From Pyrobaculum neutrophilum V24Sta (GTDB lineage: Archaea; Thermoproteota; Thermoprotei; Thermoproteales; Thermoproteaceae), in contig NC_010525.1 of NCBI RefSeq assembly GCF_000019805.1, positions 1,258,618 through 1,290,617 on the forward strand: DNA of 32,000 nt. Direction: 5' to 3'. Positions 10,993 to 32,000 of this stretch are shown here, in pieces. Each line of letters begins with the position of its first letter. Within the stretch, counting starts at the first letter, position 1. The notes beneath the pieces were generated by a model, which was not told the origin of the DNA, ran no database searches, and saw only the letters and a list, made by a program, of their open reading frames with translations. Made by a program: the position numbers and the translations under genes.

Positions 10993-11093
10993 GGGCCCGT
11001 AGCTCAGCCCGGTTAGAGCGGCGGAGGACCCAGCCGGGTCTGCCGAGGCTTTTAACCCGTAGGTCGTGGGTTCGAATCCCACCGGGCCCGCCA
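10993..11093 (+). tRNA. tRNA-Lys (anticodon TTT) with one non-canonical intron (11025-11047, between positions 30/31); CCA encoded
   Basis: Acceptor stem GGGCCCG/CGGGCCC, D arm GCTC-AGCCCGGTTA-GAGC, T arm GTGGG-TTCGAAT-CCCAC. The BHB has central helix CGGC/GCCG, 3-nt bulges GGA and AGG, and inner helix GGACCC/GGGTCT. Cutting after the second bulge nucleotide gives anticodon arm GCGGG-CTTTTAA-CCCGT. Confidence 0.85.
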
Positions 11094-11908: not shown

Positions 11909-12038
11909 TGGTGGGCCCGCCGGGATTCGAACCCTATCCCAACCCCCCTCGGCGGGGGGTTGACGGGACCACCCGCGTTCTTAGGCTGTTGCGGGTGTGC
12001 CGTGTAAGGCGGGCATCATGCCGCTAGACTACGGGCCC
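11909..12038 (-). tRNA. tRNA-Val (anticodon TAC) with two introns (11978-12002 at canonical 37/38; 11934-11963 inside the T stem at 51/52); CCA encoded
   Basis: Acceptor stem GGGCCCG/CGGGCCC. The canonical BHB has central helix CTTA/TAAG and bulges CAC/AAC. The T-stem BHB has central helix GTCC/GGAT, bulges CGT/AGG and inner hairpin CAACCCCCC/GGGGGGTTG. Predicted cuts restore T arm CCGGG-TTCGAAT-CCCGG exactly. Confidence 0.85.
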
Positions 12039-20028: not shown

Positions 20029-21336
<1,308 letters not shown>

Positions 21337-21338
21337 AC

Positions 21339-21935
21339 GTGGATCTCCCCAAGTTGCTGCTGGTGAAATTCTTCTCCGAGACCCTGGGCATGAGGTACGC
21401 CGGTGAGAGCGGTTGGGTCCTCCTCTTCGACGAGGGTTTAAACAGAGTGGCGGTGGGGGTCTACCTGGCGGAGGTCTACGAGGAGGCCGAGATGTATAAA
21501 CGCGTGGGCGAGCTGTTGGGCCTTGGCGCGTCGAAGATCTTTCTCGCGGTTCTGCCGGAGGCTATGCCGTTTGTGGATCCGAGGTACTTCAAGAGCCAGG
21601 GGTTGGGCCTGGTGGTTGTGGACCCCTCGAAGGGCCCCGAGGGCGTCGAGATAAAGATCTTCGCAAAGCCGCGGCCTACCCCCCAGGCGGATCTAGGTAG
21701 AGCAGACGCGGTGCGGACCGCCCTCATGGAGTACGTCAACTCGCAACTGAAGAAGCTTGAGGAGACGCTGTATGAGAAGTTGAAGAGGTACGTTGACCAG
21801 AGGCTTGAGGAGATCAAGCGGCGTGAGACAACGCCGGAGAGCCCCCGCGCGGAGCCCCAGCCGGCGGCGCCGAGCTCGGTTGCGGAAAACGAGTGGGTTC
21901 GGATACTTAGGTCTAGGGGGAGAGGGGGGAGTTAG
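21339..21935 (+). CDS. rkd-2: Arcadin-2-position protein (start uncertain: 21318, 21339 or 21390)
   Basis: The ORF begins 2 nt after the crenactin stop. It has a central coiled-coil-like segment (LKKLEETLYEKLKRYVDQRLEEIKRRE), a Pro-rich linker and a basic C-terminal tail (ENEWVRILRSRGRGGS). Confidence 0.7.
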   Translation: MDLPKLLLVKFFSETLGMRYAGESGWVLLFDEGLNRVAVGVYLAEVYEEAEMYKRVGELLGLGASKIFLAVLPEAMPFVDPRYFKSQGLGLVVVDPSKGPEGVEIKIFAKPRPTPQADLGRADAVRTALMEYVNSQLKKLEETLYEKLKRYVDQRLEEIKRRETTPESPRAEPQPAAPSSVAENEWVRILRSRGRGGS

Positions 21936-21943
21936 TATATAAA
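21936..21943 (+). promoter_or_regulatory. Internal TATA box of the crenactin cluster
   Basis: TATATAAA is centred about 24 nt upstream of GTG 21964. Confidence 0.5.
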
Positions 21944-21963
21944 GGCCGGCCGCCATTTCCGAC

Positions 21964-22134
21964 GTGGATATACTCCTGGAGGAGATAAGGAGGACCTTTG
22001 GAGCCACCGACGAGGGGAAGCTAGCCGAGGCGTTGGTCGTAGCCTATAGACAAGGCGGCGCTAAGGCGGCTAAGGCGGTGCTCCACGAGTACCTGAGGAG
22101 GCTGGGGGTCGATGTGGAGGATAGAGAGGATTGA
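21964..22134 (+). CDS. rkd-3: Arcadin-3-position small protein, 56 aa, absent from the ORF track
   Basis: My translation from GTG 21964 is VDILLEEIRRTFGATDEGKLAEALVVAYRQGGAKAAKAVLHEYLRRLGVDVEDRED, ending at TGA 22132-34. An in-frame TAA at 21940-42 bounds the frame upstream. It overlaps the next gene by 23 nt. Confidence 0.6.
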   Translation: MDILLEEIRRTFGATDEGKLAEALVVAYRQGGAKAAKAVLHEYLRRLGVDVEDRED

Positions 22135-24499
22135 GTTGGAGAACTTCAGATCCTACAAAGGCAGACATGAGCTACGCATAGGCGACGCCGCGGTCTTCTG
22201 GGGCAGAATAGGCGCTGGCAAGACATCGATACTGTACGCAATAGAGTACGCTTTGTTTGGTAGACAGCTTGAGGTGAAGGAAAGAGTTGCGAGGCTTGTC
22301 GATCTAATCAACGCAGATGCGCAAGAGGCTAGGGTGGCGCTGGAGTTGCGGAAAGGCGGCGAGTTGCTGCGCGTTGAGCGAAGGCTGGGGAGGAGAGGCG
22401 GCGAGAGGGTTGTCCTGCACTACGGCGGCGTAGAACACCGGGGGGATCAAGCCGAGGAGAAGCTGGCGGAGCTCCTGGGGGCTGACGAAGACGTCTACGA
22501 GCGCCTAGTCTACATATCGCATAGGACGCTTGAGGGCTTCATATACGGCACAACGCAGAAGAGGGCTCTCTCGGTGGACCGTCTCTTCGGTATAGACGTC
22601 GTAGACGGCGTGATCAAGGCCGTGTCTACATATGAGAAAGCCCTGCTCAACGTTGCGGAGGATCTCAGGAAGAGGCTTGCGTCGTATGAGAAATACAGGG
22701 AGGTCATCAAGCGGTATGGGGGCTACAGAGGCGTAGAGGCTAGGCTGGGGGCTGTTGAGCAAGAGCTTGAGGCGTTGAAGAAGAGGGAGGAGGCGCTTTC
22801 GGCCGAGGCCGCTGACCTCGCGAAGAGGAGGACCGCCTACCTGGAGAAGATCAGAGAAAACGAGGGCCTTCTCCTGGAGTACTACAGAGCGAAGTCGGAG
22901 CTTGAGGTCTTGGAGTCAGATGCCGGCGGAGATGTCGACGTATCTGCGGTGGAGAAGATAAGGGAGGCGCTTCGGGAGGCACTAGAGGAATACGAACATC
23001 TGTTGGGCCGCGAGCTTGCCGAGAGGCTGGAAAAGGCGGCAGATTTAGAATCTCTATCCACGGCCATGTCCGAGGCCTACGAGGCGCTCCTCAAGCTGGC
23101 GGGCGAGTTGGAGGCGCAGATCTCGGAGACTAAGAAGACGTATGAACAATTGCTGGCTAGGGCGAAGCGGCTTGACGAAGAGGTGCGGGACGCCGAGGCT
23201 AAGCTCAAGAGGTTGGAGAAGTCGTACAACCGCTTTAAGGAGCTTCAGCGGTCTTTCCAGTCTCTAGACGCCGCAAGAGCGGCCCTCGCTGAGGTGAGGA
23301 AGCGGCTTGACGAAGTGGAGAGATCCGTGGCGTTTCACTCGGCGTTGAGAACAGTGGCTTTGTACACGGCGGAGACTGGGGCTGAGCGGTGTCCGCTGTG
23401 TGGCTCGCCGATAGATCGCAGAGCCGCGCTACGGGTTGCTGATGAGGTAGAGGGGAAATTCGGCGAGCTTATCCGGGAGGCGGAGGCCCTCAGGGAAAAG
23501 GTAAGAGAGCTTGAGAAGGCCGTAGATGAGATGGACGCGTTAAGCGGCGAAGTCGCGGAGTACCTAGCCACGAAGGCAAAAGCGCAGGAGCTCGCGCTTG
23601 AGAGGGAGGAGGTGGTCAAGAGGGTTCTCCAGGCGGAGAAGTCTGTGAAACAGCTGGAGAAGAAGGCAGAGAGGCTCCGGGCCCTCCTCGCGAGGATAGA
23701 TAAGCGCATTATAGCAGAGGCCGTGGCTAAATACGGAAGAGCGCTGAGGGCTAGGGAGCTCCGCCGTAGAGTTAAAGAGCTGGAGGAGGCGTTGGCAAAG
23801 GCGGGGGTGGGGGGCGAAACTCTCGACGTGGAAATGCGGTGGAGAGAGGTTGTGGCCGACTTAGAAAAAACGTCGAGCCGCATGGCGGAGCTTCACAGGG
23901 AGAAGACGAGCCTGGAGGAGGTGGTGAGGGAGGTAGGCGGCGACGCCGAATCGCTGAAGAAGAAGCTGGACTCCGCCCTATACGCCTACGGCAGACTCCA
24001 GGAGCTGAAGGCCAAGCTGGAGCTGGCTAAGGTAAACGCCAGGGCTAGGTTGCTGGAGGTGGCAAGATCGAAGTTCAACGAGGTTTTTCTCTCGCTCTAC
24101 AAATACGGAGATTTAGTCGGCGTCAACGCCGACTTAGAACAGCGCAGGGGGTACTACGAGTTCTACGCGGTGACGCCCACGGGGGAGCGATACGGCATTT
24201 CAAAACTGAGCGACGGGCAGAGGCTCTCCATCGCCCTCGCCCTAGCCCTGGCCCTCCGTGATGTCTCGAACATCCACATAGGCTTTGTGATCTTCGACGA
24301 GCCGATACCATACGTAGACGTCAACATAAGGAAGGCCTTCGTAGATCTGGTACACGCTCTATCAAACAAGTACCAGATAATCGTCGCGACGCAATCCAGG
24401 GAGTTCGCAGATCTAATAAAAAACGCGCTAAACGCCAAGCTCTACTCGGTGGCGAAGAGGGAGAGCTCCGAGGTGAGGGAAGAGAGAGATCAGAGCTAA
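22112..24499 (+). CDS. rkd-4: Arcadin-4-position protein: Rad50/SMC-like coiled-coil ATPase with a zinc hook
   Basis: Walker A GRIGAGKTS (aa 31-39), a very long heptad-rich middle, CPLC at aa 427-430 (nt 23390-23401), signature-like LSDGQRLS, and Walker B FVIFDEP. Confidence 0.85.
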   Translation: MWRIERIELENFRSYKGRHELRIGDAAVFWGRIGAGKTSILYAIEYALFGRQLEVKERVARLVDLINADAQEARVALELRKGGELLRVERRLGRRGGERVVLHYGGVEHRGDQAEEKLAELLGADEDVYERLVYISHRTLEGFIYGTTQKRALSVDRLFGIDVVDGVIKAVSTYEKALLNVAEDLRKRLASYEKYREVIKRYGGYRGVEARLGAVEQELEALKKREEALSAEAADLAKRRTAYLEKIRENEGLLLEYYRAKSELEVLESDAGGDVDVSAVEKIREALREALEEYEHLLGRELAERLEKAADLESLSTAMSEAYEALLKLAGELEAQISETKKTYEQLLARAKRLDEEVRDAEAKLKRLEKSYNRFKELQRSFQSLDAARAALAEVRKRLDEVERSVAFHSALRTVALYTAETGAERCPLCGSPIDRRAALRVADEVEGKFGELIREAEALREKVRELEKAVDEMDALSGEVAEYLATKAKAQELALEREEVVKRVLQAEKSVKQLEKKAERLRALLARIDKRIIAEAVAKYGRALRARELRRRVKELEEALAKAGVGGETLDVEMRWREVVADLEKTSSRMAELHREKTSLEEVVREVGGDAESLKKKLDSALYAYGRLQELKAKLELAKVNARARLLEVARSKFNEVFLSLYKYGDLVGVNADLEQRRGYYEFYAVTPTGERYGISKLSDGQRLSIALALALALRDVSNIHIGFVIFDEPIPYVDVNIRKAFVDLVHALSNKYQIIVATQSREFADLIKNALNAKLYSVAKRESSEVREERDQS

Positions 24500-24757: not shown

Positions 24758-25477
24758 CTACCTTGCCCTCTGCCAGAGGTGGTTGAAGTATGTACGGGCT
24801 ATCTCCGCAATAAATCTCTCGTTTGAGTAAATGCCGGAGATGTCTCCGCCGTATTTTACAAATATAACAACGGCGCCTCCGATGGCGCCTCCGCCGAACA
24901 TCTCCTGGGTTGTCCTAACCTCCACCCGCGGGGGGAGGTCAAACCTCTGCCTAAGCGCCTCAGTGGTCAACACCTTTATGGATATGCGCCTGGACTCCTC
25001 AGTCAGCGTGGCCAACAGCCTATATGTGGCGACCTCTGGAAAGGGTATCGCGAGATAGGCCTCAGCCTCGGCGGCGGTGACCACCTCCTGTATGAGATCC
25101 ACTACTCGATCTTGGCCTCGAATAAGCGTGAGAAACGTCGGCGCCACCTCTCTGTAGCGGCTTTCGTACAGCATCTGCAAGGTGTCGAACGTGGGCTTAA
25201 GCGTCTTCAACACGTCGGAGGCCGTGTTAACCAACCTCCTGTAGACCTCCGAGGGCGGGACAGCCTTAAACTTAGCTGGCCTAGACCCCCTCTCCTGGTT
25301 GACCGCCCCCGCCTTCTCAAGCCTGTTGAGGTGTTGGTAGACTTTTGTATATGGGATCCCCAGGGCGTCTGAGATCTCCCTTGCCGTCAGAGCCCCCCGC
25401 TCCACCAGCGTTATGTATATCTGCACCTCCCTCTTCCCCACCCCCAACAAGGCCATAACCCTCTCCAGCCCCTCCAC
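24758..25477 (-). CDS. TrmB-family transcriptional regulator
   Basis: The N-terminal winged helix is LGVGKREVQIYITLVERGALTAREISDALGIPYTKVYQHLNRLEKAGAV, followed by a TrmB-type C-terminal domain. Confidence 0.8.
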   Translation of the reverse strand: MEGLERVMALLGVGKREVQIYITLVERGALTAREISDALGIPYTKVYQHLNRLEKAGAVNQERGSRPAKFKAVPPSEVYRRLVNTASDVLKTLKPTFDTLQMLYESRYREVAPTFLTLIRGQDRVVDLIQEVVTAAEAEAYLAIPFPEVATYRLLATLTEESRRISIKVLTTEALRQRFDLPPRVEVRTTQEMFGGGAIGGAVVIFVKYGGDISGIYSNERFIAEIARTYFNHLWQRAR

Positions 25478-25559
25478 GGCGTCTTCTCCCTATTTCCTTT
25501 TTAACCTTCTTCCGGTAACTCAGTTAAAAAGTATATATCTTGGTGAACTAGCGCCGTCA

Positions 25560-27281
25560 ATGACAACTCAGGTGTTGGTCGAGAGCCCGAGGAGGCTCGT
25601 GGATCTGTCGAAATACAGCCTCCCCGAGAGGTACAGATCCACGCTCACGAACGAAAAGTGGCAACAGACGCTGAAGAGGCAGTTCGGACTACCTGAGCAC
25701 GCCAGGGTTGTCAAAGCCACGCTCTCTCTATGTCCCGTGTGTAACCGCAGGATACCGGCGGCGGTGTATGAGGAAAACGGCGCCATCTGGATGAAGAAGA
25801 GGTGCCCAGAACACGGCGTTTTCGAAGACCTCTACTGGGGCGACGCGGAGATGTACTACTACTTCCTTCAGTGGGATAGGCCCGAATATATTGCGAAGGG
25901 CCTCGCCAACCCCTACACCGACCTTGAGTTCTACAAGGACATGGGCTCCTGTCCAGAGGGTTGCGGGCTCTGTCCAGTCCACAAGTCCAACACGGTCTTG
26001 GCTATAGTAGACGTCACAAACAGATGCAACATGGCGTGTCCCGTCTGCTTCGCCAACGCCGGCGCCGCGGGCTACGTCTATGAGCCCACCATAGAACAGA
26101 TAGAGTACATGCTGAGGACTCTGAGGGCCCAGAAGCCCTGGGCTCCAAACGCCGTACAGCTCTCCGGAGGCGAGCCGACCCTTAGAGACGATCTGCCAGA
26201 GATCATAAGAATGGCGAAGAAGCTAGGCTTTACGCACATAGAGGTGAACACCAACGGCATTAGGCTAGCCAACGACATAGAGTACTACAAGGCGCTACTT
26301 GACGCTGGGCTCTCTACCTTGTATCTCCAGTTTGATACAATTGACGAGAAGAACGAAGGCGTGTGGAGACACAGGATGTATCACCCCAAGGCCTACAAAA
26401 TCATCAAGGAGCGTGTTATCGAGAATGCGAGGAAGCTGGGCCACCGCTCTATTGTGCTAGTTGTAACCCTGGCGAGAAACTATAACGACAAGGACCTTGG
26501 GAAAATCGTAGACTTCGCTATACAGAACAGAGACGTCGTTAGATGGATTAATATCCAGCCTGTTAGCTTTGCCGGGCGCGCCAAGCTTTACAGCAAGGAG
26601 GAGCTTAGGAAGTTCCGCATCACTATACCGGATACCATCATAGAGATAGAGAAGCAGACGGGCGGGGCGATAAGCAGGTGGGACTGGAGGCCCACCAACT
26701 GGCCAGTCGCCGTGGCCAAGATGGTGGAGGCGCTGACAGACTCTCCAAAGCCGCTGTTCTCCATGAACCCCATGTGCGGCGCCGCCACCTTCATATACTA
26801 CGACGAAGACGAGAAGCGCATATACCCAATCACCAAGCTAGTAGACGTAGACGCCTTCGAGAAAGGGGCGTGGGATGTCTACTACACGGCGGCGAAGGGC
26901 GGCGTGTACAAACACGCGGCCAAGGTTAAAGCTCTGAAGCTTCTGAAGGCCGTGAAGCACAAAAGGGTGAGGGATTTGATATACGACTTCCTGGTCAAGA
27001 AGGACTACGACTCGCTAGGCCGCTTCTTCTTCAACGTGGTGGGGATAGGCATCATGCACTTCATGGACACCATGAACTACGACATAGAGCGCGTCCAGCG
27101 TTGCGATATTCACTACGCGACGCCCGACGGCCGCGTCTTCCCGTTCTGTACCTACAACGTAGTAGGCCACCGCGAGAAGGTAGAAAGCTCGTTCAAGATA
27201 GACGCGAAGACCTGGACGAAGGTCACGGGGCTATCCCTAACCGGCTGGAATAGGCAACGCTTTGCGGAACTAAAGGCGTAA
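25560..27281 (+). CDS. Radical SAM protein, tetraether lipid synthase (Tes / GDGT-MAS)-like
   Basis: N-terminal zinc-ribbon-like CPVC...CPEHG, an extra Cys cluster CPEGCGLCP, the radical SAM motif CNMACPVC, and SGGEPTL. I chose ATG 25560, which follows TTAAAAAGTATATATC. The ORF-track start at 25413 overlaps the TrmB-family gene. Confidence 0.6.
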   Translation: MTTQVLVESPRRLVDLSKYSLPERYRSTLTNEKWQQTLKRQFGLPEHARVVKATLSLCPVCNRRIPAAVYEENGAIWMKKRCPEHGVFEDLYWGDAEMYYYFLQWDRPEYIAKGLANPYTDLEFYKDMGSCPEGCGLCPVHKSNTVLAIVDVTNRCNMACPVCFANAGAAGYVYEPTIEQIEYMLRTLRAQKPWAPNAVQLSGGEPTLRDDLPEIIRMAKKLGFTHIEVNTNGIRLANDIEYYKALLDAGLSTLYLQFDTIDEKNEGVWRHRMYHPKAYKIIKERVIENARKLGHRSIVLVVTLARNYNDKDLGKIVDFAIQNRDVVRWINIQPVSFAGRAKLYSKEELRKFRITIPDTIIEIEKQTGGAISRWDWRPTNWPVAVAKMVEALTDSPKPLFSMNPMCGAATFIYYDEDEKRIYPITKLVDVDAFEKGAWDVYYTAAKGGVYKHAAKVKALKLLKAVKHKRVRDLIYDFLVKKDYDSLGRFFFNVVGIGIMHFMDTMNYDIERVQRCDIHYATPDGRVFPFCTYNVVGHREKVESSFKIDAKTWTKVTGLSLTGWNRQRFAELKA

Positions 27282-27287
27282 TTTTTC

Positions 27288-29123
27288 CTACCTCTTCTCC
27301 CTCCGCCTTAGGGCCAGAAACATAACTGTGGCTACTACCGCAGTCGTAGCCAGTGCGAGGACGGGGGGGCGAGGCTCAGCCTTTGGTTTATTCGTCTGGT
27401 GGCCCGCGGGGGGTAGGGCGAAGGTTATGTTTTTCACGACTATGGGGAGTTGGATGTAGTACTGTAGCTCGACTCTGGAGACGTTGACAGCGCCGTAGTA
27501 CCTCTTCAACGCCGCTATCTGTAGATCTAAGTCCCTTTTCTCCCTCTCCACAGCCTCCGTGAGGTTGTAGACTGTGGATTCCACATAGCCGAGCTTGGGC
27601 AGAGCCCTCAGCTGTTCCTCTCTGTAGCGCTCGAGAGCGCCGGCGGATTCCACGAGTCGCCTCCCGAGATCCCGCAGGAGGCGGGAGGCGTTGTGGAGCG
27701 GGGCGACGAATCTGTAGACCTCCCCCGCCGTCTTGTAGAGGTTGTCCGCCACAGCGAGGAGGTTCTTCGAGGCGTTGAGGAGGATCTGCGGCATGTCCTT
27801 CCTGAGGACTGTGGCGTTGGCGCGGGTGGAAGACGCCGTGTTGTTAAGTAGCGGGGCCAACTCCCCCAAGCTCCTTCTAGTGGCGTCGAGCGTGGCGATT
27901 GTAGAATCGATGGTGGAGATAAGCGCGTCGACTGTTGAGATATAGGAGTCCACGGCGGCTCGGGCGGCGGCTAGTTGCGCCTCGGTCGCGTCAAGCAGAG
28001 ATAACGTGAAGTTTACCGCTTGTTTAGCCTCCCTCGTGGTGGCGTTGAGCGCGCTTAACCTCCTCTTGGCCTCCTCCACGTTTTTGATCGCGGTATCTAG
28101 CTGTTGTCGTGCGGCGATTAGGTTAGCTCTAACCGTATACAGTTGGCTACGGGTGTTGATAAGGCTTTTCTCCGCCTCGCCGGCGGCGGCGTTGTACGAG
28201 GTCAACGCGGCAGACTGCACCTCGAGGAGGTTCGCCGCGGTGATCAAAGCCGTGTATTGATAATCGACGAGGAGGAGGCTTTGGTTAAGCGTCGTGGCGA
28301 CTCCGCGCGCGGCGTCGCCCAAGGCAAGCATCTGCCGCCTCAGCGCCTCCACAGCGTAGGTGGAGGCGTTGACGGCCACAGCACCTTGCTCCATCGCGGC
28401 GCCTGTCGCGTTTAGGATCTGGATCAGGCGCGTGAGGTTCTGGATCTGTCCGTAGGCCACGTCGGTAAACGTGGAGACAGCCCTTGTGAAGTTCCGAAGC
28501 CGCGCTAGAGCCCCCTCAAGGCCCTGTCTACGCGCCTCTAGGGACTCGACGGTCTTGTTTATGTCCAACACGGCGACTGCGGACACAGTGGGCATTCTAA
28601 CTGCGCCGAAGCTGCCGAACTGCCTTACCCTCAGCCTTATCCGGAACTCGGTGTAGTTCTGCACGAGGAGGCTCCAGTAGTAGACCGTGGTCCCAGATAT
28701 CTGGGATATAGAGGAGGGGGCCTCGCCGTAGAGGAGAGCCACCTTGTCGTCCACGGGGATAGAAACCACCACGGGCACCGCCGCCGGCACGAGGCTGTAC
28801 ATCCTCAGCGTAAGATCTACGGCGGTTCCCCTACCCCCCGACAGCGTCCCCTCCGAAAGCGTTCCGTTGACGTAGCGCACGTCAACGTCGATCCTCAGGA
28901 AGGGCGGGTAGATGTTCTCCACCGGCCTCTCCACGACCACCGCCGAGTAGGGGGGCACCACTACCCCGGAGTAGTTGAGGGGGGCGGAGCCGTTGTTTAT
29001 AACCACCTCCCTGACTGCGGCCTCCGCCGAAATCGCTCCCCCCGGCTTCACTGTGTATGTCACCACGAGGGTAGAGGCCGCCAGCAGATACGCCAAGACA
29101 AGCGCGTAGACAAGCGCCTTCAT
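27288..29123 (-). CDS. Membrane-anchored extracellular protein: N-terminal beta-rich domain, about 370 aa of coiled coil, C-terminal TM anchor
   Basis: Signal/TM N-terminus (MKALVYALVLAYLLAAS), long helical repeats, about 19 N-x-S/T sequons by my count, and a C-terminal TM with an RRREKR tail. ATGA overlap with the upstream ATPase gene. Confidence 0.75.
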   Translation of the reverse strand: MKALVYALVLAYLLAASTLVVTYTVKPGGAISAEAAVREVVINNGSAPLNYSGVVVPPYSAVVVERPVENIYPPFLRIDVDVRYVNGTLSEGTLSGGRGTAVDLTLRMYSLVPAAVPVVVSIPVDDKVALLYGEAPSSISQISGTTVYYWSLLVQNYTEFRIRLRVRQFGSFGAVRMPTVSAVAVLDINKTVESLEARRQGLEGALARLRNFTRAVSTFTDVAYGQIQNLTRLIQILNATGAAMEQGAVAVNASTYAVEALRRQMLALGDAARGVATTLNQSLLLVDYQYTALITAANLLEVQSAALTSYNAAAGEAEKSLINTRSQLYTVRANLIAARQQLDTAIKNVEEAKRRLSALNATTREAKQAVNFTLSLLDATEAQLAAARAAVDSYISTVDALISTIDSTIATLDATRRSLGELAPLLNNTASSTRANATVLRKDMPQILLNASKNLLAVADNLYKTAGEVYRFVAPLHNASRLLRDLGRRLVESAGALERYREEQLRALPKLGYVESTVYNLTEAVEREKRDLDLQIAALKRYYGAVNVSRVELQYYIQLPIVVKNITFALPPAGHQTNKPKAEPRPPVLALATTAVVATVMFLALRRREKR

Positions 29124-29884
29124 ATCCCAACCAGCTCGTCGATGTGTTTCAACTTCTCATACACCGCGGCAGCCCGCTCGACGTCTACCTTGAGCTCCCT
29201 CCTAGGTGGCTCCGCTGTTTCGTAGAGCCTGCCGCCCCTCATATACACCAGCCTGGTGGCTATGCGGGCCACCTCGGGGTCGTGCGTGGCGATAAACACA
29301 GTGGATTTAAACAGCCTGTTGACCACGTGAATAAGGCCGAGGACCTGCGAGGCGTTGTCGGGATCCACGTTGGAGGTCGGCTCGTCTAGGATGAGGATAG
29401 GCGGGTTGGCCGCCAAGGCTCTCGCCACGGCGGCCCTCTGCTGCATACCGCCGGACATCTGGTGGGGGTAGAGCGCGGCCGCCTTTTCAAGACCCACCAG
29501 CTCCAGAAGTAGCCTCGCCTTGAGCATGGCGAGCTCCTTCTTGACCCCCAGCGTGACCAGGGGGAGAGCCACGTTCTGCTCCGCCGTGAGGTAGGGCACT
29601 AGGTTGTAGCTCTGGAAGAGGTAGCCTATGTTGCGCAGGCGGAACCTCTCCAGCTTCCCCTCCGACATCTTAACCACGTCAACCCCCAGCACGTACACCT
29701 CCCCGCTGGTGGGCCTATCCAGCGTGGCGATTATGTTCAACAGCGTCGTTTTGCCGGACCCCGAAGGCCCCATTAGGACAACCGCCTCGCCTTGTGCAAC
29801 ACTAAGCGAAACGCCGTCTAACGCCACCGTTTTAACGCCGCCGCTGCCGTATACCTTAGTTACGTGTTTCAGCTCTACCGCCAT
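29120..29884 (-). CDS. ABC transporter ATP-binding protein (MacB/LolD type)
   Basis: Walker A GPSGSGKTT, Q-loop, signature MSGGMQQR, Walker B ILILDEPTS. Confidence 0.9.
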   Translation of the reverse strand: MAVELKHVTKVYGSGGVKTVALDGVSLSVAQGEAVVLMGPSGSGKTTLLNIIATLDRPTSGEVYVLGVDVVKMSEGKLERFRLRNIGYLFQSYNLVPYLTAEQNVALPLVTLGVKKELAMLKARLLLELVGLEKAAALYPHQMSGGMQQRAAVARALAANPPILILDEPTSNVDPDNASQVLGLIHVVNRLFKSTVFIATHDPEVARIATRLVYMRGGRLYETAEPPRRELKVDVERAAAVYEKLKHIDELVGI

Positions 29885-31020
29885 AGTTGCATTATCTCAA
29901 GCGGCCTTAGCTTGGCCACCTTGTAGAGGGGCGCGACGGCGCCGGCCATAGCCACGGCTAGGGAGGTGGCCATCCCCAGAAGCGCGTACTGCGGCCTGAA
30001 GGCTATAGGCACGTGGAAGTTAACCCCCATGCCAACCAGCGCCTCCTTAACCGCGTTTGCCCCAAAGTAGCCCACCAGAACTCCCACGGCTCCTGCCACG
30101 GCGGCTATTATGAAAACCTCTACGAGGAGGGAGAGAGCGAGGTCGCGGGAGGGGACCCCCATGGCCTTGATGAGGCCGAACTCCCTTAGACGCTCCCTGA
30201 CGGTTATAGACATAACTGCGAAGGTGGTTATGGCGGCGGTCGCCAGCGCTGCGCCGCTTATTGCGGAGAAGACGAAGTTCAAGGCGTTGAAGACCTGGGT
30301 GACGGTCTGGAGCAGGTTTTCCTGTGTATAGACCTGGGCGTCTCCGTACGTCTCCTTAAGCGCTTGGTAGAGGGGGGCCACGTAGGATTTATCCCTCGCG
30401 GTGATCAACACCGCGTTGACGAAAGGCCCAGTGCCCAGCTTGCTCTGTAGCCAGTCCAGGGGCACCACCACGAGGTTTAGCCTAAAAGCCCCTATGAACC
30501 CCCTTAGGAAGCTCCTCATCACCCCCACGGCCTTCACCTTGATGGTCTTCTCGCCGCCGGATGCGCTGTATATCTTTATCTCCATCTCGTCGCCGGGCCT
30601 AACGCCAAGGGACTCCTCGACGACGGCCTCCCCGCCCGACGCAGGTAGCCGCCCCGCGGCTAGGTCGACGGCGAAGTAGTCCACGTCCCTAAGAGGTATC
30701 CCCACTATGGAGACCACCTTCCCCCGGTAGACGCCCGTCGTTATGATTATGCCCTCGGCCGTCTGAACGAGGGGGTACCCCCTTAGGTAGTCCACGAGGC
30801 GCATGGGGATGTTTATAGACTCCGAATACAGCATTATGTCGGCTGGGTACAGCCTCAGGAGGGTCTGTTGCACGTAGTCCCTTGTGGCGTCGCTCACGGC
30901 GGTGAGGGCGACTAGGAGGGCGACCCCAACCCCTATGGCCAAGGCAGTGAGTATGTAGCGGACGGCCCGCGCTTTGAAGTCGCCCACGGCGATCATCAAG
31001 ATGTGTTCCACAGCTGACAC
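29875..31020 (-). CDS. FtsX/MacB-type ABC transporter permease
   Basis: One N-terminal TM, a roughly 220-aa extracytoplasmic domain and three C-terminal TM helices, which is the MacB/FtsX architecture. It overlaps the ATPase gene by 10 nt. The GTG start is uncertain. Confidence 0.8.
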   Translation of the reverse strand: MSAVEHILMIAVGDFKARAVRYILTALAIGVGVALLVALTAVSDATRDYVQQTLLRLYPADIMLYSESINIPMRLVDYLRGYPLVQTAEGIIITTGVYRGKVVSIVGIPLRDVDYFAVDLAAGRLPASGGEAVVEESLGVRPGDEMEIKIYSASGGEKTIKVKAVGVMRSFLRGFIGAFRLNLVVVPLDWLQSKLGTGPFVNAVLITARDKSYVAPLYQALKETYGDAQVYTQENLLQTVTQVFNALNFVFSAISGAALATAAITTFAVMSITVRERLREFGLIKAMGVPSRDLALSLLVEVFIIAAVAGAVGVLVGYFGANAVKEALVGMGVNFHVPIAFRPQYALLGMATSLAVAMAGAVAPLYKVAKLRPLEIMQLWR

Positions 31021-31064
31021 CCGCCACTGATATATAATTTTAAATAGGCAAAGCGGTTGTCCAC

Positions 31065-32000
31065 GTGCGCAAGACCGTCGTTGCCGCGCTTGTCCTCTTG
31101 GCCATGTACATCTACCTAGCCGTCCAGGCGCCGCACGTCTTCGACGTGTTGATCTACGACGAGTCCAAGCTCATGCCTCCCGACATCGAGCCGAAGCTCG
31201 TAGAGTCGATTGTCGGAAGCGGAGGCGGGAGCAAGGCTGTGCCCATCGTCATCTCGGGCCCCCACCTGGAGGAGAAGGCGAGGAATCTAACGCGGATTTA
31301 TCCCAACGCCGTAACGCCGTGGACGATCCTCGACGCCGCCACGAGGATCTACAGGGATAAAATAGACGCTGCCGTGGACAACGCCACCGCCCGCTTCAGA
31401 GAGGCCGCCTTCCACATATCCAACTCCACTAGGGAGATGTGCGACAAGTTGGAAATCCTTGCGAGAGTCTATGCGGAGTCCAGAGAGGCGGCAAAGCGCC
31501 TTATCCTCGCCACATACGGCGTTGCGGCCTCTGGGAACGCCTTCGACAACAGGACGAAGAGGTTCTTAGAGGCGTATGCGAGATACGTTGCGATCTACGA
31601 CGTAGACACCGCCGTCAGGAAGGCGGCTGACGAAGCATATGGCAACGTCTCGACGTATCTAGCCAACGTGACCTGGAGAACATGGGCAAGCGAGGGCGCA
31701 GTGGAAAACGTCACATATGCCATACTCAGGGGCAGGCTGAATTCCACAGCCCTGGAGATCGCCCGGGCCGTGGCAACGGTGGGGGTGAGGCAATACGTGT
31801 ACCTCTCAGCCCTGGATAAAACCCCTCCGATTCTCAGGCCATATCTGCCTCAGCTGGTGTGTGGGGGAGACGTGGAGAGAGCCGTGTCGATGTTTAGAGA
31901 GGAGCTTATGCGGAATCTCACTGCGCGTTTCCCGCCGCCTACCATATATACGGTGGAAGCAGCGGCGAAGTTGGTCTACCAGGGCAGATACGCCCTGGCG
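31065..32000 (+). CDS. N-terminally membrane-anchored, sequon-rich helical protein (3' end outside the window); not in the ORF track
   Basis: The frame is open from GTG 31065 to the window edge (312 codons). N-terminal TM is VRKTVVAALVLLAMYIYLAV, with about 9 N-x-S/T sequons. A TATATAAT box lies upstream. Confidence 0.6.
   Translation, partial: MRKTVVAALVLLAMYIYLAVQAPHVFDVLIYDESKLMPPDIEPKLVESIVGSGGGSKAVPIVISGPHLEEKARNLTRIYPNAVTPWTILDAATRIYRDKIDAAVDNATARFREAAFHISNSTREMCDKLEILARVYAESREAAKRLILATYGVAASGNAFDNRTKRFLEAYARYVAIYDVDTAVRKAADEAYGNVSTYLANVTWRTWASEGAVENVTYAILRGRLNSTALEIARAVATVGVRQYVYLSALDKTPPILRPYLPQLVCGGDVERAVSMFREELMRNLTARFPPPTIYTVEAAAKLVYQGRYALA

What the first reader, a model, noticed from the sequence alone, without database searches (positions are those of the whole stretch)
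27288..31020. MacB-type ABC transporter operon fused to a 611-aa glycosylated coiled-coil surface protein
Seen in sequence: three minus-strand genes are coupled by overlaps, 10 nt between the permease and ATPase genes and ATGA between the ATPase and 611-aa genes.

The third product has:
- a signal/TM N-terminus
- a roughly 190-aa beta-rich domain
- about 370 aa of uninterrupted helical/coiled-coil sequence
- a C-terminal TM anchor
- about 19 N-x-S/T sequons

Established knowledge: bacterial MacB pumps work with a coiled-coil adaptor (MacA) that spans the periplasm. The overall architecture also resembles the crenarchaeal S-layer stalk protein SlaB.

Inference: this may be an archaeal analogue of a tripartite mechanotransmission system, spanning the pseudo-periplasm beneath the S-layer. 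I do not recognise it as a characterised system.
Basis: partly seen in the sequence, partly recalled or inferred. Interest (0 to 1): 0.7.

Follow-up and report, generated by a model that had tools for sequence, protein, structure and literature searches.

The report
Archaeal MacB pump with hairpin stalk
A heat-loving archaeon (Pyrobaculum neutrophilum) has a three-gene operon for a MacB/FtsX-type ABC transporter plus an uncharacterised, sugar-coated surface protein whose roughly 25-nm helical hairpin could span most of the gap under the cell's outer protein coat, making it a good but unproven candidate for a new archaeal envelope-spanning machine.

Summary
Three minus-strand genes encode a permease, an ATPase and a 611-aa protein. 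They overlap by 10 nt and by ATGA. The 611-aa protein has a signal peptide, a beta domain, about 360 helical residues, a C-terminal TM helix and 19 N-x-S/T sequons (3.9 expected).

New here: the helical part is not one rod. It is an antiparallel hairpin of about 170 residues (about 25 nm) per arm, inserted in a membrane-proximal beta domain.

The gene pairing holds outside Pyrobaculum:
- A 26%-identical homolog in a non-syntenic contig has the same MMPL | permease-ATPase-homolog layout.
- Two more distant homologs sit beside MacB-type genes.
- Vulcanisaeta-type loci keep only the ATPase.
- One Pyrobaculum-like lineage keeps only the permease.

The SlaB idea fails. The Pyrobaculum S-layer is one self-anchored 292-kDa protein, and the topology differs from SlaB.

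The protein is not homologous to MacA/HlyD adaptors, MCE proteins or any solved structure.

Best reading: a dedicated extracytoplasmic partner of an archaeal type VII ABC system, analogous to MacA or EnvC. No interaction, oligomeric state or substrate has been shown. I class it as a new variant of a known kind, of moderate-to-high interest.

The parts
29875..31020 (-). MacB/FtsX-type ABC permease, 381 aa from the GTG at 31020 (378 aa if it starts at the more likely GTG at 31011). It has 4 TM helices and an extracytoplasmic domain of about 200 aa between TM1 and TM2. It has no N-x-S/T sequon.
   Evidence: - ORF.
- Pfam FtsX (residues 253-371) and MacB_PCD (residues 23-223), both above gathering score.
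- Hydropathy TM segments at 18-46, about 246-274, 291-324 and 345-365.
- Best solved relatives are 5xu1_M (S. pneumoniae MacAB-like permease, E 1.8e-12), then MacB and LolC.
- Ortholog N-termini align from residue 4.
29120..29884 (-). ABC ATPase of the LolD/FtsE/MacB-NBD clade, 254 aa. It overlaps the permease gene by 10 nt and the 611-aa gene by ATGA.
   Evidence: - ORF.
- Overlaps read from sequence.
- ABC_tran at 119 bits.
- NCBIfam LolD 193, DevA 191, MacB 186 and FtsE 182 bits, all below equivalog cut-offs.
27288..29123 (-). 611-aa glycoprotein partner, whole gene including the stop codon. It belongs to an orphan archaeal family.
   Evidence: - 48 Pyrobaculum homologs at 47-100% identity; the 100% match is P. 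neutrophilum.
- Distant homologs with the same architecture.
- No Pfam or NCBIfam family reaches threshold.
29073..29123 (-). Residues 1-17: Sec-type signal peptide (MKALVYALVLAYLLAAS). Cleavage is inferred, not shown.
   Evidence: - Hydropathy.
- Model has helix 2-14 followed directly by the first beta strand at residue 18.
- The alignment shows a conserved short hydrophobic h-region.
28563..29072 (-). Residues 18-187: orphan beta-rich domain. It ends in the family signature FGSFGAVR(M/L)P, with W150 invariant across the whole family.
   Evidence: - Model strands with pLDDT about 75-93.
- Hydrophobicity period of 2.0.
- W150 invariant in alignment A2.
- A profile of this domain finds nothing in the PDB at E <= 10 and no Pfam family.
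28053..28562 (-). Residues 188-357: outbound arm of the alpha-hairpin, 170 residues, about 25 nm. It has a canonical heptad pattern. Conserved sequons lie at N189, N211, N229, N238, N252 and N280. Residues 223-310 are the most conserved stretch.
   Evidence: - Helices 188-281 and 283-357.
- 3.5-residue periodicity power 186 against about 10 at other periods.
- Conservation 0.80-0.85 and about 50% hydrophobic columns at 223-310.
- Sequon conservation.
28035..28052 (-). Residues 358-363: hairpin turn. This tip is the most variable and indel-prone region, and carries a sequon at 360 or 362 in 17 of 20 homologs.
   Evidence: - Non-helical 358-363 in the model.
- All indels within the Pyrobaculum family cluster at 366-375.
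- Sequon counts.
27486..28034 (-). Residues 364-546: return arm of the hairpin, 183 residues. Conserved sequons lie at N427, N436, N450, N478 and N520, with N547 at the junction. Conserved prolines are P424, P445, P475 and P509.
   Evidence: - Helices 364-470 and 473-546.
- 3.5-3.6-residue periodicity.
- Deletions in distant homologs at reference residues 429-450 mirror those at 263-291 on the other arm.
27426..27485 (-). Residues 547-566: two beta strands (VELQYYIQLP...) that appear to return to the beta domain and close the hairpin. They are followed by a poorly conserved, low-confidence linker at 567-588.
   Evidence: - Strands 550-557 and 561-564; pLDDT 92 for residues 551-560.
- E552, L559 and P560 invariant.
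- Linker conservation 0.37.

Packing onto the beta domain is inferred. I had no access to model coordinates.
27294..27359 (-). Residues 589-610: C-terminal transmembrane anchor, with a short basic cytoplasmic tail (RRREKR).
   Evidence: - Hydropathy 586-606.
- Model helix 589-610.
- TM plus basic tail conserved in all homologs.
31021..31064 (.). 44-bp divergent promoter region shared with the MMPL gene. The A/T block ATATATAATTTTAAATA (31030-31046) is centred 27 nt from the permease GTG at 31011 and 27 nt from the MMPL GTG at 31065. This suggests two leaderless, possibly co-regulated transcripts.
   Evidence: - Sequence.
- Short A/T-rich MMPL|permease spacers in 12 related loci.

Promoter function is inferred from archaeal TATA-box spacing (established knowledge). 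It was not tested.
31065..32000 (+). 5' part of a divergently transcribed MMPL/RND-superfamily transporter gene, which runs off the window. It is a frequent but not obligatory neighbour of the operon.
   Evidence: - Reading frame.
- Orthologous full-length genes of 853-929 aa carry PF03176 MMPL in P. aerophilum, P. calidifontis, L021 and Vulcanisaeta L007.
- Absent upstream in P. oguniense.
- The 311-aa fragment itself has no Pfam hit.

Best explanation
The operon encodes an archaeal type VII (MacB/FtsX-fold) ABC system with a dedicated third, extracytoplasmic subunit.

Shown:
- The permease has 4 TM helices and a MacB-type extracytoplasmic core domain.
- The ATPase belongs to the LolD/FtsE/MacB clade.
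- The 611-aa gene is translationally coupled to them.
- The gene family stays next to these ABC genes in lineages with unrelated flanking genes.

Shown by modelling and alignment:
- The 611-aa protein has a signal peptide and a beta domain.
- A heptad-regular antiparallel alpha-hairpin of about 170 residues per arm (about 25 nm) is inserted in that domain.
- The chain returns to the beta domain and ends in a TM anchor. The beta domain therefore sits at the membrane and the hairpin points outward.
- Conserved N-glycosylation sequons face away from the coiled-coil core.

Inferred:
- The beta domain and hairpin base dock on the permease's extracytoplasmic domain.
- ATP-driven movements of that domain (mechanotransmission, as established for MacB, LolCDE and FtsEX) act through or along the hairpin assembly, which spans most of the roughly 37-nm space under the S-layer.
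- The most likely job is to extract a hydrophobic or amphipathic substrate from the membrane surface and pass it outward. This would resemble MacA-MacB or YbbAP in a cell without an outer membrane. The frequent pairing with an MMPL/RND lipid-type exporter fits a lipidic substrate.
- A lever-type role like FtsEX-EnvC is the main alternative output.
For: 1. Family assignments of the permease and ATPase.

2. Coupling. The 10-nt and ATGA overlaps recur in 24 Pyrobaculum/Thermoproteaceae loci. The operon stays intact where flanks differ: P. oguniense lacks both the MMPL and radical-SAM neighbours, and L014/L035 and L026 lack the radical-SAM neighbour.

3. Linkage in distant relatives:
- L021 (homolog 26% identical, unrelated flanks): MMPL | permease-ATPase-homolog with a 4-nt overlap.
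- L017: permease-ATPase-homolog.
- L006: ATPase-permease divergent from the homolog.
- Vulcanisaeta L007 and L037: ATPase-homolog.
- L005/L011: the permease directly overlaps the homolog, with no ATPase.

4. Hairpin:
- AlphaFold2 model.
- Foldseek finds only long antiparallel hairpins such as MCP, Rad50, MukB and SMC.
- Strong 3.5-residue periodicity.
- Indels confined to the predicted turn, and mirror-image deletions on the two arms in distant homologs.

5. Extracellular and glycosylated:
- 19 sequons against 3.9 expected.
- 14 sequon positions conserved.
- 11 of 13 helical sequon Asn residues point more than 90 degrees away from the hydrophobic core.
- All 20 family members tested have more sequons than their shuffles, by 2- to 6-fold.

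6. Length constraint. The helical region is 350-359 residues in every homolog down to 26% identity, except one of 319 residues (P0057, 24%). That gives about 26 nm per arm, against a 37-nm membrane-to-lattice distance.

7. Precedent in cis. Four large FtsX/MacB_PCD permeases carry coiled-coil inserts of about 400 aa in their extracytoplasmic domain.
Against: - There is no evidence of physical contact.
- The partner has no detectable homology to MacA/HlyD adaptors or EnvC. hhalign against a HlyD protein gives only 45% probability.
- The hairpin tip is the least conserved part, so no conserved distal docking partner is evident.
- Vulcanisaeta-type loci lack an FtsX permease within 10 kb. This is awkward if the permease is the obligate contact.
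- Two distant homologs, on short contigs, have no ABC neighbour in the sequence available.
- A conserved operon would equally fit the protein being a client of the transporter.
- The hairpin plus beta domain (about 30 nm) may fall short of the 37-nm lattice.
Confidence: 0.5

Rival explanations
1. The 611-aa protein is a client or cargo, or an independent surface glycoprotein such as a pseudo-periplasmic strut, spacer or adhesin. It is co-transcribed with the ABC transporter because the transporter helps its biogenesis, for example membrane extraction or insertion in the manner of LolCDE. It would not be a working subunit.
For: - The operon linkage is equally compatible with a client relationship.
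- The variable tip and heavy glycosylation are typical of exposed surface proteins.
- Some homologs lack an ABC neighbour in the sequence available.
- Loci can lose either the ATPase or the permease while keeping the protein.
Against: - The protein carries its own Sec signal and a TM anchor, so it needs no dedicated exporter.
- Translational coupling suggests stoichiometric co-production.
- The helical length is conserved down to 26% identity.
- The strongly conserved mid-hairpin has an unusually broad hydrophobic face, which points to specific protein contacts.
Confidence: 0.27
2. Together with the ABC motor it forms an FtsEX-EnvC-like lever. ATP hydrolysis moves the hairpin to control something at the S-layer canopy, such as lattice insertion, gaps or pore gating, rather than to transport a substrate.
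For: - Type VII ABC systems include pure mechanotransducers that act on coiled-coil hairpin partners. This is established knowledge (FtsEX-EnvC, PMC7668044, listed).
- The hairpin length is conserved and approaches the lattice distance.
- The published Pyrobaculum lattice has gaps and must be remodelled during growth.
Against: - The protein has no effector domain; the beta domain is an orphan.
- The beta domain sits at the membrane end, not the distal end.
- The tip is poorly conserved.
- The link to an MMPL transporter fits transport better.
Confidence: 0.12
3. It is a SlaB-type S-layer stalk or anchor protein.
For: The linear order of signal peptide, beta domain, coiled coil and C-terminal TM, plus glycosylation, resembles SlaB (SlaB is described in the paper text returned).
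Against: - The Pyrobaculum S-layer is built and anchored by one 292-kDa protein with its own TM helix and an Ig-domain pillar.
- The coiled coil here is an antiparallel hairpin that puts the beta domain next to the membrane, opposite to SlaB.
- The gene is not next to an S-layer protein gene.
- No SlaB or S-layer structure appears among the Foldseek hits.
Confidence: 0.03
4. It is an MCE/MlaD-like lipid-transport tunnel protein, as the automatic JGI name 'ABC-type transporter Mla subunit MlaD' suggests.
For: - JGI names for several homologs.
- Weak helical-region matches to Mtu_fam_mce (E 0.019) and Mce4_CUP1.
- The MMPL neighbour hints at lipids.
Against: - No MCE domain hit at E <= 1.
- The matches cover only coiled-coil segments.
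- The partner ABC is MacB/FtsX-type, not MlaE/YrbE-type.
- MCE helical domains are single parallel helices, not hairpins.
Confidence: 0.03

Closest known systems
MacAB-type pumps, especially those of monoderm bacteria (S. pneumoniae Spr0693-0694-0695, B. subtilis YknXYZ) and E. coli MacAB-TolC
   Same: - A MacB-fold 4-TM permease with an extracytoplasmic core domain.
- A LolD/FtsE-like ATPase. Here it is a separate gene, as in the monoderm systems.
- An operon-encoded, membrane-anchored extracytoplasmic partner built from a beta domain with an inserted alpha-helical hairpin that projects away from the membrane.
- The window permease's best solved relative is the Spr0695 chain 5xu1_M.
   Different: - The partner shows no HlyD, lipoyl or beta-barrel domain by Pfam and no fold match to any solved adaptor.
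- Its hairpin is about 25 nm. From my own knowledge, not checked here, adaptor hairpins are roughly 5-13 nm.
- Its anchor is a C-terminal TM helix rather than an N-terminal one.
- It is heavily N-glycosylated.
- There is no outer-membrane duct. Instead a proteinaceous S-layer lies 37 nm away.
- Hexamer formation is unknown.
FtsEX with coiled-coil partners (EnvC, PcsB, CwlO, RipC)
   Same: A type VII ABC complex whose extracytoplasmic domain grips a long antiparallel coiled-coil protein and moves it by ATP-driven mechanotransmission (PMC7668044 and others listed).
   Different: - Those partners carry an effector or regulator domain (LytM, CHAP, NlpC/P60) that acts on peptidoglycan, which Pyrobaculum lacks.
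- They are not TM-anchored by a C-terminal helix.
- The permease here matches MacB_PCD over its full length rather than the FtsX equivalog (NF038346 E 0.007).
YbbAP-TesA and LolCDE (type VII ABC extractors of hydrophobic molecules)
   Same: A MacB-fold ABC that pulls lipidic molecules out of the outer leaflet and hands them to an extracytoplasmic partner (PMC12646458 and PMC8333309, listed). The MMPL neighbour here suggests a lipid-related role.
   Different: Their partners (TesA hydrolase, LolA chaperone) are small and globular, not a 25-nm anchored hairpin. No substrate is known here.
SlaB (Sulfolobales S-layer stalk)
   Same: Signal peptide, beta-rich domains, coiled coil, C-terminal TM helix, N-glycosylation, and a length comparable to the pseudo-periplasm.
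   Different: - From my own knowledge, the SlaB coiled coil is a single-pass parallel trimer with the beta domains distal.
- Here an antiparallel hairpin returns to a membrane-proximal beta domain.
- Pyrobaculum needs no separate stalk.
- The genomic partner is an ABC transporter, not an S-layer protein gene.
Large FtsX/MacB_PCD permeases with in-cis coiled-coil inserts (P0081, P0091, P0095, P0098; apparently bacterial, uncharacterised)
   Same: A MacB-type permease combined with several hundred residues of extracytoplasmic coiled coil. These proteins were recovered as weak hits of the 611-aa family profile.
   Different: - The coiled coil is part of the permease chain.
- The sequences are K/E/D-rich and lack the beta domain.
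- hhalign probability is only 36%, so homology is not established.

Membership tests
Type VII ABC transporter (MacB/FtsX/LolC fold): permease and ATPase | C-terminal FtsX domain forming the TM2-TM4 bundle | tested here: met
   PF02687 FtsX at 68.2 bits (cut-off 25.5), residues 253-371.
Type VII ABC transporter (MacB/FtsX/LolC fold): permease and ATPase | Large extracytoplasmic domain (Porter/Sabre) between TM1 and TM2, with a four-TM topology | tested here: met
   - PF12704 MacB_PCD at 50.4 bits (cut-off 27), covering profile positions 2-206 of 207.
- Hydropathy segments at 18-46, about 246-274, 291-324 and 345-365.
- Solved relatives are 5xu1_M, MacB and LolC.
Type VII ABC transporter (MacB/FtsX/LolC fold): permease and ATPase | Cognate NBD of the LolD/FtsE/MacB clade | tested here: met
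   Top NCBIfam matches are LolD, DevA, MacB and FtsE at 181-193 bits. All fall below the equivalog cut-offs, so this is clade-level membership only.
Type VII ABC transporter (MacB/FtsX/LolC fold): permease and ATPase | Mechanotransmission: ATP-driven movement of the extracytoplasmic domain without transmembrane substrate passage | not testable with these tools
   Needs biochemistry or structures in different nucleotide states.
Periplasmic adaptor / membrane fusion proteins (HlyD, MacA, AcrA family): 611-aa protein | HlyD-family lipoyl, beta-barrel or MP domains | tested here: not met
   - No HlyD_D23, HlyD_3 or Biotin_lipoyl_2 hit at E <= 1.
- A profile of the beta domain finds no PDB chain at E <= 10 and no Pfam family.
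Periplasmic adaptor / membrane fusion proteins (HlyD, MacA, AcrA family): 611-aa protein | Alpha-helical hairpin inserted within a beta domain, so that the chain goes out and comes back | tested here: met
   - Model: strands 18-187, hairpin 188-546, strands 550-564.
- Mirror-image deletions and tip-restricted indels.

This is a topological resemblance only.
Periplasmic adaptor / membrane fusion proteins (HlyD, MacA, AcrA family): 611-aa protein | Detectable sequence or fold similarity to solved adaptors | tested here: inconclusive
   - No adaptor among the top 50 Foldseek PDB hits.
- hhalign against a HlyD-family protein gives 45% probability over the tip region.
Periplasmic adaptor / membrane fusion proteins (HlyD, MacA, AcrA family): 611-aa protein | Hexameric funnel or tube assembly on the transporter | not testable with these tools
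   No multimer prediction was available. The broad hydrophobic face of the mid-hairpin only hints at self-association.
SlaB-type S-layer stalk: 611-aa protein | Anchors a separate lattice protein, and its gene lies beside the S-layer protein gene | tested here: not met
   - Neighbouring genes are an ABC transporter, MMPL and a radical-SAM enzyme.
- The Pyrobaculum S-layer protein is self-anchored.
SlaB-type S-layer stalk: 611-aa protein | Single-pass parallel coiled coil with distal beta domains | tested here: not met
   The coiled coil is an antiparallel hairpin and the beta domain is membrane-proximal.
MCE / MlaD family: 611-aa protein | MCE beta-barrel domain (PF02470), partnered with an MlaE/YrbE permease | tested here: not met
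   - No MCE hit at E <= 1; only coiled-coil-level matches.
- The partner permease is FtsX/MacB type.

The most novel reading that the evidence does not exclude
The ABC motor and the hairpin protein form an ATP-driven mechanical link across the archaeal pseudo-periplasm. Force generated at the membrane would be carried about 30 nm to the underside of the colossal S-layer canopy, to open, insert into or remodel the lattice, or to gate its pores. That would be an FtsEX-EnvC-like principle in a cell with no peptidoglycan. A related version is that the hairpins assemble into a glycan-sheathed conduit, shared by the MacB-type pump and the neighbouring MMPL exporter. That would amount to an archaeal 'tripartite' efflux system without an outer membrane.
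Probability: 0.12. Interest if true: 0.85.

Novelty: new variant of a known kind. Interest (0 to 1): 0.6.

Why it matters
MacB/FtsX-type ABC systems are understood only in bacteria, where each works with a specific extracytoplasmic partner (MacA-TolC, LolA, EnvC, TesA). Nothing comparable has been described for archaea, and a major review of archaeal surface biogenesis does not mention FtsX or MacB at all.

This locus offers a concrete, conserved candidate partner. Its length appears tuned to the width of the space under the S-layer. It appears just as the first molecular structure of the Pyrobaculum S-layer has been reported as a preprint.

If the proposed role is confirmed, it would show how archaea move hydrophobic molecules or mechanical signals across a 30-40 nm pseudo-periplasm. 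It would also define a new protein family: an orphan beta domain carrying a glycosylated hairpin of about 25 nm. The recurrent MMPL neighbour gives a handle on the unknown function of archaeal MMPL/RND transporters.

Tried and rejected
Searches that gave little:
- Two word-indexed protein searches using broad alignments returned only Pyrobaculum sequences or 3 close relatives.
- Scans of genome contigs and metagenome contigs with Thermoproteales-level patterns found only Pyrobaculum/Thermoproteaceae loci. The broader alignment had no usable conserved stretch.

No multimer modelling was possible.

Unresolved:
- The precomputed tags PF28019 and PF24161 on some homologs could not be identified in the local Pfam copy or in the literature.
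- Taxonomy of the distant loci was resolved only for L007, which is Vulcanisaeta.

Checked and rejected:
- Saci1846, the third S-layer component in Sulfolobus, is a thermopsin-like protein with Ig-like domains and is unrelated.
- MCE/MlaD, SMC, HmpF, laminin and similar matches are coiled-coil noise below thresholds.
- Viral structure matches are generic SMC/Rad50-type hairpins.

Literature searches for PAE2285, archaeal MacB/FtsX partners, archaeal MMPL and archaeal membrane fusion proteins found no prior description.

Full report
**Source and observation.** The window comes from Pyrobaculum neutrophilum; the 611-aa product has a 100% match there. ORF listing confirms three minus-strand genes at the stated coordinates: a permease at 29875..31020, an ATPase at 29120..29884 and a 611-aa ORF at 27288..29123. 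The sequence shows the 10-nt overlap (ATGGCGGTAG) and the ATGA overlap.

The permease passes the Pfam gathering scores for FtsX and MacB_PCD. The ATPase is an ABC NBD whose best NCBIfam matches are LolD, DevA, MacB and FtsE. The permease's closest solved relatives are the S. pneumoniae MacAB-like permease 5xu1_M, then MacB and LolC.

The 611-aa protein has hydrophobic N- and C-terminal segments and no cysteine. It has exactly 19 N-x-S/T sequons, against 3.9 +/- 1.8 in shuffles. The permease probably starts at the GTG at 31011.

**Anatomy of the 611-aa protein.** An AlphaFold2 model built on 20 homologs (mean pLDDT 78.9) gives these elements in order:
- a signal-like helix at 2-14;
- a beta domain at 18-187;
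- helices at 188-281 and 283-357;
- a turn at 358-363;
- helices at 364-470 and 473-546;
- two confident strands at 550-564;
- a disordered linker;
- a TM helix at 589-610.

The helical region is thus a long antiparallel hairpin inserted in a beta domain, not one continuous rod. Three lines of evidence independent of the model agree:
- Foldseek against the PDB and a viral library returns only long antiparallel hairpins such as chemoreceptors, Rad50, MukB and SMC.
- The outbound arm has a very strong 3.5-residue hydrophobic periodicity, with power 186 against about 10 at other periods.
- Within Pyrobaculum, all indels fall next to the predicted turn. In distant homologs, deletions on the two arms are mirror images: reference residues 263-291 on one arm and 429-450 on the other.

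Each arm is 170-183 residues, about 25-27 nm. Because the chain returns to the beta domain before the TM anchor, the beta domain should be membrane-proximal and the hairpin should point outward. The packing of strands 550-564 onto the beta domain is inferred from their high confidence and conservation. I had no access to model coordinates.

**Glycosylation pattern.** Fourteen sequon positions are conserved in at least 16 of 20 homologs. In the helices, 11 of 13 sequon asparagines point more than 90 degrees away from the local hydrophobic core. This is what solvent-exposed glycan sites on a coiled coil would look like. All 20 family members tested have more sequons than their shuffles, by 2- to 6-fold.

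The distal third of each arm (about 281-357 and 364-426) has no conserved sequon apart from the tip. The tip is the most variable region. The mid-hairpin (223-310, paired with about 411-495) is the most conserved part, at 0.80-0.85 column conservation. About half its columns on the outbound arm are hydrophobic, more than a two-helix coiled coil needs. That hints at further protein contacts, either self-association or a partner.

**Family and distribution.** Word-indexed searching finds only Pyrobaculum orthologs. An exhaustive profile search of 1.84 billion representatives finds 56 hits. About two dozen of them share the full architecture: signal, beta domain ending in a W...P signature, sequon-rich helices, and a C-terminal TM.

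No Pfam or NCBIfam family reaches threshold on any member. A profile of the beta domain alone hits nothing in the PDB at E <= 10 and no Pfam family. The family is rare, archaeal as far as I could tell, and uncharacterised. Automatic names such as MlaD, SMC, EzrA and prefoldin reflect coiled-coil noise.

Within Pyrobaculum and Thermoproteaceae, 24 loci have the permease directly upstream of the homolog. In 22 of them the ATPase lies between the two genes. The two exceptions are copies of one contig. The operon survives where flanks change. P. oguniense has unrelated genes in place of both the MMPL and radical-SAM neighbours, and several loci lack the radical-SAM gene. In the L005/L011 contig the ATPase gene is absent, and the permease gene overlaps the homolog by 4 nt.

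Outside this group:
- L021 (homolog 26% identical, unrelated flanks) has MMPL | permease-ATPase-homolog with a 4-nt overlap.
- L017 has permease-ATPase-homolog.
- L006 has ATPase-permease divergent from the homolog.
- Vulcanisaeta L007 has MMPL | ATPase-homolog with no FtsX permease.
- L037 has ATPase-homolog, with no FtsX gene within 10 kb and an MMPL gene 6.5 kb away.
- L016 and L018, both short contigs, show no ABC neighbour.
- L019 and L020 are cut just upstream of the homolog.

So five of seven informative distant contexts place the gene beside a MacB-type ABC component. This argues for a functional unit rather than inherited synteny. It also shows that the trio can be split.

**Relation to the S-layer.** A 2026 preprint (10.64898/2026.08.21.746120) reports three relevant things. 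The Pyrobaculum S-layer is made of one 292-kDa protein. That protein anchors itself with its own C-terminal TM helix and forms its own Ig-domain pillar. The membrane-to-lattice distance is about 37 nm.

A SlaB-type stalk is therefore not needed, and the reversed topology here also argues against that reading. The same numbers make the spanning idea plausible. A hairpin of about 25-26 nm, a beta domain and a 24-residue linker would reach most of the way to the lattice.

The helical region is 350-359 residues in every homolog down to 26% identity, with one exception of 319 residues (P0057, 24% identical). It is shorter in more distant lineages, at 255-334 residues. That conservation suggests selection on length.

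**Comparison with known partners.** The build is a beta domain with an inserted hairpin, a membrane anchor, and an operon shared with a MacB-type ABC. This is analogous to MacA, YknX or Spr0693 adaptors and to the coiled-coil partners of FtsEX. Homology is not supported: there are no HlyD-family domains, no adaptor among the fold matches, and hhalign gives only 45% probability to a HlyD protein.

The weak helix-only hits of the family profile include several envelope-machine proteins:
- four large FtsX/MacB_PCD permeases with coiled-coil inserts of about 400 aa;
- a HlyD adaptor;
- an SLH plus TolC-like protein.

I treat this as a precedent for MacB-type permeases combined with long extracytoplasmic coiled coils. 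It is not evidence of common descent.

**Mechanism.** I commit, at about 0.5 confidence, to the reading that this is the extracytoplasmic subunit of an archaeal type VII ABC machine.

Shown: the family memberships of the permease and ATPase, the translational coupling, the conserved linkage, and the hairpin-in-beta-domain architecture with outward-facing conserved sequons.

Inferred: docking on the permease ectodomain, ATP-driven action through the hairpin, and an outward hand-off of a hydrophobic substrate. The recurrent divergent MMPL/RND gene suggests such a substrate. In the window it shares a 44-bp spacer with one A/T block placed 27 nt from each start codon.

Rivals:
- a client or independent surface protein (0.27);
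- an EnvC-like lever acting on the S-layer (0.12);
- a SlaB-like stalk (0.03);
- an MCE-like tunnel (0.03).

**Novelty and interest.** I found no description of this family or of any archaeal MacB/FtsX partner in the searchable literature. The transporter is a known kind. The partner and the envelope context are new, so I class this as a new variant of a known kind.

Interest is 0.6. It is a specific, testable lead that ties into the newly reported Pyrobaculum S-layer architecture, but the central claim of a physical and functional complex is still inference.

Noticed in passing
window 20047-24499 (+): The crenactin 'arcade' cytoskeleton cluster lies about 3 kb from the operon. It consists of an actin-family gene (20047-21336; PF00022, 34.9 bits), small ORFs, and a 795-aa SMC/Rad50-like coiled-coil ATPase (22112-24499). 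Naming these crenactin and arcadin-4-like rests on my own knowledge. The same order recurs in P. aerophilum and P. calidifontis, but not next to distant homologs of the 611-aa gene.
   Followed up: partly
window 31065-32000 (+) and L001:1470-4052, L021:1362-3923, L007:2254-5043: A divergent MMPL/RND-superfamily transporter gene is the operon's neighbour in Pyrobaculum, in the L021 lineage and in Vulcanisaeta. Its first extracytoplasmic loop in the window appears helix-rich on reading the sequence and carries many N-x-S/T sequons. The function of archaeal MMPL proteins is unknown.
   Followed up: partly
L005:4871-7815 (= L011), a Thermoproteales MAG: The ATPase gene is missing from the operon and the permease gene overlaps the 604-aa homolog by 4 nt. 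The converse occurs in Vulcanisaeta-type loci (L007, L037), where the ATPase and homolog are adjacent and no FtsX permease lies nearby. Where the missing components are encoded is unknown.
   Followed up: partly
P0081, P0091, P0095, P0098 (proteins): These are large (1204-1359 aa) duplicated FtsX/MacB_PCD permeases, apparently bacterial. Each has a coiled-coil insert of about 400 aa in the first extracytoplasmic domain. It looks like an in-cis version of 'MacB permease plus long stalk'. I found nothing characterising them.
   Followed up: partly
L006:7904-8392, L016:2648-3133, L019:1937-2425, L020:1860-2378: A highly conserved gene of 161-172 aa (72% mean column identity) sits immediately downstream of the distant homologs in four contigs. 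It has no Pfam hit, and its N-terminus looks ribbon-helix-helix-like. It is absent from the Pyrobaculum locus.
   Followed up: partly
window 10993-11090 (+) and 11912-12038 (-): Two tRNA matches found by Rfam (53.7 and 32.9 bits) were missed by ARAGORN. They are longer than a standard tRNA (98 and 127 nt), so they probably carry introns.
   Followed up: no
window 25413-27281 (+): A radical-SAM enzyme gene with an HMPTM-type zinc ribbon converges on the 611-aa gene, with stop codons 6 nt apart. The listed 622-aa ORF overlaps the TrmB-family regulator gene (24758-25477, -). Orthologs are 573-580 aa, so the true start is probably about 45 codons downstream.
   Followed up: no
homologs P0001-P0010, P0026, P0045: Some homologs carry precomputed Pfam tags PF28019.1 and PF24161.2. 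These do not appear in the local Pfam scan or in the searchable literature, and I could not establish what those models are.
   Followed up: partly
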